Shown: positions 3,876 to 4,227 of the stretch, one piece after another
Layout of the letters: the number at the start of each line of letters is the position of its first letter
Position numbering within the stretch: the first letter of the stretch is position 1
Origin: a virus
Lineage: Duplodnaviria; Caudoviricetes
IMG/VR virus record: IMGVR_UViG_3300027852_000046
Location: 1-52,827 of that record
Reading direction: 5' to 3' (one strand)
DNA length: 52,827 nt
Made by a program: the position numbers and the translations under genes
Notes under the pieces: generated by a model
Databases searched by the model: none
What the model saw: only the letters and a program-made list of their open reading frames with translations
Told to the model about the DNA's origin: nothing

Positions 3876-3936
3876 ACATAACAAGGTTTATCAAGCCGAC
3901 TCGCTGACGCTCACGGATTATTAACGGGCGTTAGTT
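3876..3936 (+). other. attC-like site
   Basis: ACATAAC..ATCAAGCCGAC..CGGATTAT..GCGTTAGTT. Confidence 0.85.
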
Positions 3937-4161
3937 GCATGCGCTCACTGTGCTGTCGGCATTGAATTTCACGCTCATGTAGCCATAGCCAGCGTAGCCT
4001 AGCTGTCCTTTAAAAAATAAATATCTAACACCGTCAATACATCTCTCATTAATTGCTTCCCCACTATTATCAGCCGTTGGGTCTGGTGTCCCACAAGCTA
4101 CAACTAACAAGGCAGTCAAACTGACAGCCAAAAGCATCGCGGTTCTTTTTAATTTATTCAT
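3931..4161 (-). CDS. Cassette lipoprotein
   Basis: MNKLKRTAMLLAVSLTALLVVAC lipobox; ATG lies within attC 4102-4227. Confidence 0.75.
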   Translation of the reverse strand: MNKLKRTAMLLAVSLTALLVVACGTPDPTADNSGEAINERCIDGVRYLFFKGQLGYAGYGYMSVKFNADSTVSACN

Positions 4162-4227
4162 AATATTTACCTTTATCTATTTTAATTTAGTGCGGCTTTT
4201 GGCTGCTGCTTACCTTAAGCGTTATAC
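4102..4227 (+). other. attC-like site, signal-peptide-encoding family
   Basis: AACTAAC..CAGCCAAAAGC..GCTTTTGGCTG..GCGTTATAC. Confidence 0.85.

What the first reader, a model, noticed from the sequence alone, without database searches (positions are those of the whole stretch)
3931..4227. An attC site encodes a lipoprotein signal peptide
Seen: the ATG at 4161 lies inside attC 4102-4227, and MNKLKRTAMLLAVSLTALLV is read from the hairpin arm; the cassette body then adds VAC. A homologous half site at 1327-1386 gives MNKLKRTTFLLVVSLTALLA followed by NGC on a different mature protein (1168-1326). Known: basic n-region, hydrophobic h-region and lipobox Cys define a signal peptidase II substrate. 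Inference: a recombination site has been co-opted as a portable export tag. Small phage lipoproteins often act in superinfection exclusion, but that role is a guess here.
Basis: partly seen in the sequence, partly recalled or inferred. Interest (0 to 1): 0.84.

Follow-up and report, generated by a model that had tools for sequence, protein, structure and literature searches.

The report
Phage attC site encoding a signal peptide
In this marine phage, a hairpin recombination site of the integron (attC) type holds the start of a gene, and one arm of the hairpin is read as a lipoprotein export signal that recurs on four unrelated small lipoproteins.

Summary
The window is a whole 52.8-kb virus record. 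It carries at least 21 attC-like sites.

**They resemble integron attC sites.** One site matches class-1 integron attC sites at about 82% over 60 nt. All 11 short sites tested lie with the attC bottom strand on the phage coding strand.

**The site in question.** Site 4105-4224 (- strand) is a member: both arms hit the family profile. A Shine-Dalgarno sequence and the ATG at 4161 sit in its loop. Its 3' stem, L'' and R'' arm encode AMLLAVSLTALLV. Cys23 follows three codons after R''.

**The same signal recurs elsewhere.**
- It occurs on a half site at 1328-1386.
- It occurs on three complete 120-nt sites in metagenome contigs.
- Together these carry four unrelated mature lipoprotein families.
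- Relatives of those mature parts elsewhere have signal peptides of their own.

"Portable export tag" is only partly supported. The canonical crossover lies at the opposite end (R'), upstream of the start codon. Signal and body would therefore travel as one cassette, and the joins at R'' need a non-canonical event.

**A wider pattern.** Eight of 21 sites hold a start codon, including two other leader types.

I rate this a new variant of a known kind, interest about 0.7.

The parts
4105..4224 (-). SP-type attC-like site, 120 nt. Sub-parts: R' TAAC 4221-4224; L' 4206-4213; 5' stem 4195-4205; loop 4136-4194; 3' stem 4125-4135; bulged T 4124; L'' 4115-4123; R'' GTTA 4105-4108.
4222..4224 (-). The TAA inside the R' box is the stop codon of the upstream ORF 4222-4386. 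By the canonical rule the crossover AA|C would fall between 4222 and 4221.
   Evidence: The crossover position is inferred from established integron chemistry, as quoted in PMC9892861 (5'-G|TTRRRY-3').
4159..4173 (-). Translation start inside the loop: AAGG at 4170-4173 and ATG at 4159-4161.
3931..4161 (-). Small lipoprotein gene (76 aa plus stop). The signal peptide is codons 1-20 (4102-4161). The Cys23 codon is 4093-4095. The stop TAA 3931-3933 is the R' box of the next site.
3879..3933 (-). Next attC-like site (55 nt), downstream of the lipoprotein gene.
1328..1386 (-). Half site. It keeps L''/R'' and the coding part of the loop and has no L'/R' arm. It encodes the same signal peptide.
1168..1386 (-). 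Second small lipoprotein-family gene (72 aa) with the shared signal peptide and an atypical lipobox, ANGC.
3298..3373 (-). Leader-type attC-like site (MSKANEETSQVGRLV), fused to a 60-aa ORF. A second copy lies at 12550-12625 on the + strand; there the leader ORF ends 2 nt before the next ATG.
741..862 (-). Leader-type attC-like site (MQEDTRTKETE...). Other copies lie at 8250-8372 (+), 21356-21477 (+) and 52586-52707 (-). Three copies are fused to different bodies. In one, the stop overlaps the next ATG (ATGA).
20681..20734 (+). Reference short attC-like site, the one matched to class-1 integron attC sites.

Best explanation
**What it is.** Site 4105-4224 is an integron-type attC hairpin site. 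It is one of at least 21 that punctuate the early-gene arrays of this phage in mirror orientation: the attC bottom strand is the sense strand. Each site begins with the stop codon of the gene before it (the TAA of R' TAAC) and ends at R'' (CTTGTTA), just before or inside the start of the next gene.

**How this site is read.** The variable loop carries the Shine-Dalgarno sequence, the ATG and the basic n-region (MNKLKRT). The 3' stem, L'' and R'' arm are read as the hydrophobic core (AMLLAVSLTALLV). The body supplies the lipobox Cys three codons past R''. The product is most likely a small early-expressed lipoprotein (SPa) and a related exported protein (SPb).

**What follows for mobility.** By canonical integron chemistry the crossover lies in R', upstream of the start. 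Site, signal and body therefore form one cassette. Even so, the same signal-encoding site is joined at R'' to four unrelated lipoprotein bodies. It therefore behaves as a reusable 5' module giving both translation start and export signal.

**Shown:** the anatomy, family membership, orientation, reuse, sharp borders, and conservation of the non-coding arm.

**Inferred:**
- that a host IntI acts on these sites;
- that the joins at R'' arose by non-canonical events, either IntI acting on the top strand or at a secondary GTT site, or short-homology recombination by the phage's own YqaJ/NinB system, followed by selection for in-frame fusions;
- that the protein is lipidated.
For: **Family and similarity to attC**
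- 12 exact pattern hits against 0.09 expected.
- Site 20675-20740 matches 3814 plasmid records, best 81.7% over 60 nt. One match lies next to aadA2 and one lies between qacG2 and another cassette gene beside intI1.

**Orientation**
- 11 of 11 short sites score higher against two class-1 attC sites with the coding strand as the bottom strand.
- The T bulge sits on the 3' arm of the coding strand.
- All profile hits with E < 0.1 are on the coding strand.

**Layout of the 21 curated sites**
- In 17, the TAA of R' closes an open frame of at least 40 codons.
- In 13, the next ATG lies 14-30 nt after R''.
- In 8, an ATG lies inside the site.

**Reuse of the signal**
- 3 further complete 120-nt sites were found in metagenome contigs.
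- Cys lies at residue 23 in 5 of 5.
- Among the 10 pairs of mature parts, only L012 and L013 are related (36%, E 9e-10). SPa and L013 share 19 of 20 signal residues.
- Identity is 25-30 of 30 inside the sites. It falls to 4-14 of 30 before TAAC, and to 6-12 of 30 after GTTA. The exceptions after GTTA are L012/L013 (18 of 30, related bodies), L012/L014 (16 of 30, shared lipobox) and one orthologous pair (29 of 30).

**Hairpin under constraint**
- In the non-coding part of the four sites, 22 of 23 paired columns are invariant against 17 of 40 unpaired columns (Fisher p = 2.6e-5).

**Site linked to the downstream gene**
- Site e3106 plus gene 2774-3079 matches L015 1344-1709 (50% amino-acid identity) with different upstream neighbours.
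- L018 keeps the MQE-type site with the ortholog of the 52658 gene.

**Real lipoprotein families**

**Predisposition of the arm**
- In frame A the generic arm e4676 reads ALLPVRLTNLL, against MLLAVSLTALL in SPa.
Against: - No intI or any tyrosine recombinase is present in the record. The host is unknown: two genome-contig scans gave 0 hits. Action of IntI is therefore unproven.
- The L box of the SP-type site has one mismatch in 4 of 4 copies and a G-T pair in 2 of 4. No compensatory change was seen.
- The four sequences are related, so the Fisher test overstates independence.
- Several leader-type sites fold weakly: z +0.56 for the MSK-type site and +1.40 for the MQE-type site.
- SPb and L013 fail the strict lipobox rule. 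No SignalP or LipoP was available.
- L012 and L014 share the lipobox codons and diverge only after Cys, so not every join is at R''.
- The canonical model does not explain the sharp border at R''.
Confidence: 0.55

Rival explanations
1. Integron recombination itself separates the tag from the body: the crossover falls at R'' (CTTG|TTA), so the site of one cassette donates the start codon and signal peptide to whatever cassette lands behind it.
For: - Homology between copies ends right after CTTGTTA.
- Leader ORFs read across R'' into different bodies, or stop at the next gene's ATG.
- Phage attC top strands do recombine with IntI1, at lower frequency (PMC9892861, section 3.4, read).
- attI1 ORF-11 is a precedent for a start site that reads across a crossover point (PMC8876359, passages read).
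Against: - The bottom strand is the coding strand in 11 of 11 sites, and the T bulge is on its 3' arm. The efficient crossover is therefore at R', upstream of the ATG.
- Two orthologous cassettes keep the site with the downstream gene.
- Paralogous gene ends at 512-642 and 52697-52827 are 99% alike but are followed by different sites.
Confidence: 0.15
2. The sites are attC-derived intergenic hairpin repeats that now serve the phage itself. They would act as landmarks for short-homology shuffling by the phage's own recombination genes, or as mRNA hairpins that set stability or translation. Integron integrase would play no current part, and the signal-encoding arm would be a by-product kept by protein selection.
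For: - The phage encodes a YqaJ-like exonuclease, NinB and NinG and no integrase.
- The sites lie in mRNA sense. The Shine-Dalgarno sequence and ATG are displayed in the loop.
- Some copies fold weakly.
- The half site 1328-1386 still encodes the signal without a hairpin.
- One join lies after the Cys codon rather than at R''.
Against: - The R boxes, the unpaired spacers and the bulged T are kept. These matter for IntI, not for an RNA hairpin.
- The sites are 82% identical to working class-1 attC sites.
- Borders are sharp at the 4-7-nt boxes on both sides in three site families. That is tighter than homology-driven exchange would be expected to give.
Confidence: 0.25
3. Nothing special: two paralogous lipoprotein genes share an N-terminus by ordinary duplication, and the likeness to attC is chance.
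For: Signal peptides are compositionally similar, and short hairpins are common.
Against: - The mature parts are unrelated, and their homologs carry other signal peptides.
- Both arms hit a profile built from other sites.
- The arm is 22 of 25 identical to a non-coding site arm.
- Three more complete copies exist on other bodies.
Confidence: 0.03

Closest known systems
Clusters of attC sites lacking an integrase (CALINs) in phage genomes (Qi et al. 2023, PMC9892861; abstract, section 3.4 and passages read)
   Same: These are attC sites in phage genomes without intI. A DNA methyltransferase gene lies among the cassettes here too (8392-8985). Phage attC sites were shown to recombine with IntI1.
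   Different: The paper sets a minimum of two attC sites per CALIN and shows one with three, oriented as in bacterial arrays. Here there are at least 21 sites, in two divergent arrays, all mirror-oriented to the genes. Eight hold start codons. No coding role of a site is described in the parts I read.
attI1 ORF-11 translation start (as described in the review PMC8876359; passages read)
   Same: A recombination site of the integron system carries a Shine-Dalgarno sequence and an ATG. It feeds ribosomes into the following gene by fusion or by coupling. Here, 2 of 8 leader ORFs end at or next to the next ATG.
   Different: ORF-11 lies in attI and spans the crossover point. Here the start lies in attC loops, the ORF crosses R'' and not the canonical crossover, and the peptide has a function of its own as an export signal.
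Homogeneous attC sites of sedentary chromosomal integrons, such as Vibrio cholerae repeats (recalled, no call)
   Same: One attC type is attached to many unrelated genes, with sharp borders on both sides.
   Different: In those arrays genes mostly read with the top strand and end in or before the site. Here genes read with the bottom strand and begin in or after it.
Promoter-early stem-loops (PeSL) of T4-type phages (recalled, no call)
   Same: Repeated stem-loop modules lie between small early genes and are linked to modular shuffling.
   Different: PeSLs carry an early promoter. Only one of the sites here does (5021-5081). PeSLs also have no likeness to attC.
Small phage lipoproteins such as T5 Llp and Cor (recalled, no call)
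   Same: They are small proteins made from early or accessory genes, with a lipobox and conserved Cys residues.
   Different: No sequence or fold similarity was shown here. The models were too poor to search.

Membership tests
Integron attC site | Inverse core R'' and core R' (RYYYAAC / GTTRRRY) at the two ends | tested here: met
   In the gene direction the site starts TATAAC and ends CTTGTTAG. The boxes are conserved across the 12 aligned sites: GTTA is invariant and TAAC nearly so, with one site lacking it.
Integron attC site | Imperfect inner repeat L''/L' with an extrahelical T (and G) on the bottom strand | tested here: met
   The T bulge is seen in the short sites. In the SP-type site, the pairs I proposed hold in 94.6% of cells, with one constant mismatch, a bulged T at 4124 and a bulged G at 4117. 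The structure was drawn by me from the sequence.
Integron attC site | Sequence likeness to attC sites of working integrons | tested here: met
   The family member at 20675-20740 matches attC(aadA2) and others at about 82%. The SP-type site itself was tested only against the phage family profile.
Integron attC site | Recombined by an integron integrase | not testable with these tools
   This needs an attC x attI assay. Other phage attC sites passed one (PMC9892861).
Integron attC site | Cassette gene reads with the top strand, site downstream of the gene | tested here: not met
   The coding strand is the bottom strand in 11 of 11 sites. The site lies 5' of, and inside, its gene.
Complete integron | intI gene and attI beside the array | tested here: not met
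   There is no PF00589 match in the record, while all 14 control genomes matched. The integrase beside the array in L015 is a generic tyrosine recombinase scoring far below the family cut-offs.
Bacterial lipoprotein signal peptide (signal peptidase II substrate) | Basic n-region, hydrophobic h-region, lipobox ending in Cys | tested here: met
   SPa has 3 K/R in the first 8 residues, a maximum Kyte-Doolittle hydropathy (11-residue window) of 2.7, and VVAC with Cys23. It passes both rules (the rules are recalled from memory). L012 and L014 pass the PROSITE-type rule.
Bacterial lipoprotein signal peptide (signal peptidase II substrate) | The same features, for the second ORF (1168-1386) | tested here: inconclusive
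   ANGC fails both rules. However, its Cys aligns with the lipobox Cys of 5 of 6 homologs.
Bacterial lipoprotein signal peptide (signal peptidase II substrate) | Lipid modification and globomycin-sensitive cleavage | not testable with these tools
   Bench test only. No SignalP or LipoP was on hand.
PeSL-type mobile regulatory cassette | Early promoter inside the repeated stem-loop | tested here: not met
   None of the 13 promoter-like hits lies in 4105-4224. Only 5074-5046 lies in a TAAC...GTTA frame.

The most novel reading that the evidence does not exclude
This phage group carries a mirror-image integron cassette system. In it, attC sites are 5' modules rather than 3' tails. Different site types supply the ribosome-binding site, the start codon and an N-terminal peptide (a lipoprotein export signal, or one of two acidic leaders) to ORF bodies that have no start of their own. 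New cassettes are made by joining a body to the site exactly at R''. If so, in-frame joins such as these record how attC sites become attached to genes, which is the unsolved step of cassette genesis.
Probability: 0.3. Interest if true: 0.85.

Novelty: new variant of a known kind. Interest (0 to 1): 0.72.

Why it matters
- It would be the first case I could find of a structured recombination site that also encodes a functional protein segment. One DNA arm would then be under three constraints at once: hairpin, recombinase boxes and export signal. Searches found none.
- The site carries coding sequence, so every join of a body to it must be in frame. The joins are therefore readable records of how attC sites get attached to genes, which is an open question in integron biology.
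- It shows a phage with a far denser and differently oriented attC array than those reported.
- It suggests that phages shuffle small exported early proteins as cassettes. Such proteins are candidate receptor blockers or exclusion factors.

Tried and rejected
**Searches that found little or nothing**
- Megablast of 1-8000 and 28000-40000 against isolated phages gave no match.
- The attC-like site against isolated phages found only a P1 isolate with class-1 integron parts and a Salmonella record.
- Large-terminase relatives are below 50% identical, in phages of many proteobacteria, so no host could be called.
- The portal search found one 4.6-kb relative, with only one weak profile hit (E 0.69).
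- The exact 21-mer of the signal arm gave 0 in viral contigs. The looser 27-mer gave 1 viral contig, which is the same contig as L012. It gave 0 in bacterial genomes. A generic arm also gave 0 there. Neither the host nor any chromosomal integron with these sites was found.
- A protein search with residues 1-40 found only the L013 protein.

**Structure and function attempts**
- RNAalifold on the MAFFT alignment of 12 sites predicted no pairs because the arms are out of register. I used constrained single-sequence folds instead.
- My first regex for 3' arms was too narrow. An nhmmer profile replaced it.
- AlphaFold models of both lipoprotein families were of low confidence (pLDDT 61.5 and 68.3). 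I ran no fold search, and no claim about function rests on them.
- Pfam and NCBIfam gave nothing for either lipoprotein. PHROGs gave one family of unknown function.

**Sequencing runs**
- One DNA run (X1) holds the stretch. It may be the source sample, so it is not independent. No RNA holder was listed.
- Laying its contigs gave one well-anchored variant that skips 2539-5094 (side 35, depth 13 against about 70). Six contigs diverge right after 4469, the R' end of a site.
- The other joints at site ends have sides of 21-30 nt. They may be repeat artefacts, so I do not count them.

**Ideas dropped**
- Site 26371-26442, inside the beta-helix gene, matches the pattern but folds poorly. I left it out of the 21.
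- I rejected chance likeness and plain paralogy (see the rival explanations).

**Papers**
- For PMC9892861 I read the outline, section 3.4 and passages. For PMC8876359 I read passages only.
- Supplements were closed. Supplementary Table S1 of PMC9892861 (the list of CALIN phages) may bear on novelty.

Full report
**What the window is.** The window is a complete IMG/VR virus record of 52,827 bases, which CheckV rates 100% complete.
- Genes run leftward from about 7000 to 1, and again at the far right end. They run rightward from about 7600 onward.
- Strong divergent promoter-like sites lie at 7025-6997 (-) and 7560-7587 (+). Another lies at 5074-5046 (-).
- The phage has an SU10-type portal, an Sf6-type small terminase, a YqaJ-like exonuclease, NinB, NinG and a DNA methyltransferase. 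It has no tyrosine recombinase.
- Its large terminase is below 50% identical to that of any isolated phage.

**The repeat family.**
- The pattern TAACAAG-N40-70-GCGTTA occurs 12 times, against 0.09 expected. It always lies on the strand opposite the genes.
- Read in the gene direction, the sites run TATAAC-GC...-L'-loop-L''-...CTTGTTA.
- I curated 21 sites. A profile of 12 short ones finds the rest, and every hit with E < 0.1 is on the coding strand.
- Site 20675-20740 matches 3814 plasmid records, with the best hit 81.7% over 60 nt.
- In two plasmids I inspected, the match is the attC site next to aadA2, or the one between qacG2 and another cassette gene beside intI1. The cassette genes there lie on the strand opposite to the aligned phage strand.
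- All 11 short sites score far better in that orientation than in the reverse.
- Constrained DNA folds show the bulged T on the 3' arm of the coding strand, as in an attC bottom strand.
- These are therefore attC-type sites in mirror orientation to the genes. The efficient crossover of integron chemistry is G|TT of R' on the top strand, as quoted in PMC9892861. In the gene direction that falls at the very start of each site.

**How tightly the sites are built into the genes.**
- In 17 of 21 sites, the TAA of the R' box closes an open frame of at least 40 codons.
- In 13 of 21, the next ATG lies 14-30 nt after R''.
- In 8 of 21, an ATG with a Shine-Dalgarno sequence lies inside the site.
- Of those 8, five are fused to ORFs of 60-97 aa. 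Two leader ORFs end at the next gene's start (ATGA overlap at 8392; a 2-nt gap at 12651). One gives a 33-aa ORF.
- Besides the signal-peptide type there are two acidic leader types: MQEDTRTKETE... in four copies and MSKANEETSQVGRLV in two copies.

**The finding itself.**
- Site 4105-4224 is 120 nt long. Its 5' arm is non-coding and starts with the stop codon of ORF 4222-4386.
- An 11-bp perfect stem closes a loop that holds AAGG and the ATG at 4161. The ORF then runs through the 3' stem, L'' and R''.
- The product MNKLKRTAMLLAVSLTALLVVAC... passes both lipobox rules that I applied (the rules are recalled from memory).
- Its mature part has two relatives in public data, each with a different lipoprotein signal of its own. 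The Cys aligns in 3 of 3.
- The half site 1328-1386 keeps only the coding part. It gives the same signal (16 of 20 residues identical) on an unrelated mature part.
- Relatives of that second mature part are again small lipoproteins with their own signals, and the Cys aligns in 6 of 7 rows. Its own lipobox, ANGC, fails the strict rules.

**More copies elsewhere.**
- A scan of metagenome contigs with a degenerate 27-mer of the arm found three loci.
- Each holds a complete 120-nt site of the same build, followed by a lipobox Cys at residue 23.
- The five ORFs carry four unrelated mature families. Only L012 and L013 are related (36%).
- L013 shares 19 of 20 signal residues, and an identical stretch of DNA up to CTTGTTA, with the window's SPa, while its mature part is unrelated to SPa's.
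- For the signal type and both leader types, identity is 25-30 of 30 inside the sites. It drops to 4-14 of 30 before TAAC.
- After GTTA it drops to 6-12 of 30. The exceptions are one orthologous pair (29 of 30), L012/L013 (18 of 30, related bodies) and L012/L014 (16 of 30, shared lipobox).
- In the non-coding part of the four complete sites, 22 of 23 paired columns are invariant, against 17 of 40 unpaired ones (Fisher p = 2.6e-5). This speaks for selection on the hairpin. The four sequences are related, however, and no compensatory change was seen.

**What this means for "portable tag".**
- The canonical crossover lies upstream of the start codon, so site, signal and body form one cassette.
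- Two comparisons support that unit. Site e3106 with gene 2774-3079 recurs as L015 1344-1709 (50% protein identity) behind a different neighbour. The MQE-type site recurs with the same body in L018.
- The reuse of one signal-encoding site on four bodies is therefore real, but ordinary cassette exchange does not explain it.
- It resembles the unexplained attachment of one attC type to many genes in chromosomal integrons.
- Candidate routes are IntI acting on the top strand or at a secondary site at R'', or short-homology exchange by the phage's own recombination genes, followed by selection for in-frame joins.
- Generic arms already read as semi-hydrophobic peptides in this frame: ALLPVRLTNLL in e4676 against MLLAVSLTALL here. 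A few changes would therefore suffice to turn an arm into a signal core.

**Population hints.** Contigs of the one public run that holds the phage show a variant lacking 2539-5094. Six contigs diverge right after the R' end of site 4415-4469. The run may be the source sample, and the other joints are weakly anchored.

**Comparison with what is known.**
- attC clusters without an integrase have been reported in phages, and such sites recombine with IntI1 (PMC9892861).
- A start site in attI1 (ORF-11) is known (PMC8876359).
- Five full-text searches found no report of an attC site that encodes a signal peptide or any N-terminal leader. They also found none of a mirror-oriented array of this density.

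**Verdict.** This is a new variant of a known kind. The function of the lipoproteins remains open.

Noticed in passing
window 210-238, 2753-2781, 6746-6774, 52356-52384 (- sense); 8981-9006, 13152-13175 (+ sense): There are six copies of a 24-nt half site, TAACAGCG(Y)AATAAGCGGAACA, which looks like R'/L' only. In several copies its TAA is the stop codon of the gene before, and the next start codon follows within a few bases.
   Followed up: partly
window 5021-5081 (- strand): A near-consensus promoter (TTGACG, 17-nt spacer, TATAAT with TG) sits inside a TAAC...GTTA frame between two early genes. It looks like a promoter carried in a site-like shell.
   Followed up: no
window 6789-6987 and 7608-7806: A 199-nt inverted repeat (85%) is present. 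Both divergent early arrays start, just after their promoters, with an L''/R'' half site and a paralogous first gene (MNIEKIMKDDWYKTASNEDMRV...).
   Followed up: partly
window 512-642 / 52697-52827 and 739-863 / 52584-52708: The right end of the record repeats two pieces of the left end (99% and 94%) in a different order. A paralogous gene end is followed by a different site type there. This is not a simple terminal repeat.
   Followed up: partly
window 2539-5094: One contig of run X1 joins 2538 to 5095 with one extra letter (depth 13 against about 70). This is a variant phage lacking the whole block of seven attC-like sites and their genes, including the lipoprotein gene.
   Followed up: no
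window 8250-8985: A DNA methyltransferase gene (phrog_757, E 1.5e-57) sits directly behind a leader-type site whose 31-aa ORF overlaps its ATG (ATGA). Methyltransferases were also the noted cargo of phage attC clusters in PMC9892861.
   Followed up: partly
window 26371-26442 (+ sense), inside ORF 25301-27892: A pattern match (TAACGCC...CTTGTTA) lies inside the beta-helix (tailspike-like) gene. It folds poorly and may be chance or a relic.
   Followed up: partly
L015 169-480, and L014 about 500-566: Related contigs hold further leader-type sites whose ORFs read across GTC...CTTGTTATG into different bodies. L015 also has a generic tyrosine integrase (2062-3267) 0.7 kb from the array.
   Followed up: partly
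proteins P0005, P0006, P0012, P0014: The mature domain of the second lipoprotein (1168-1386) recurs as 5-11 repeated stretches inside very large proteins of up to 3894 aa.
   Followed up: no
window 41402-50137: There is a single 2911-aa ORF in the late region. It was not examined.
   Followed up: no
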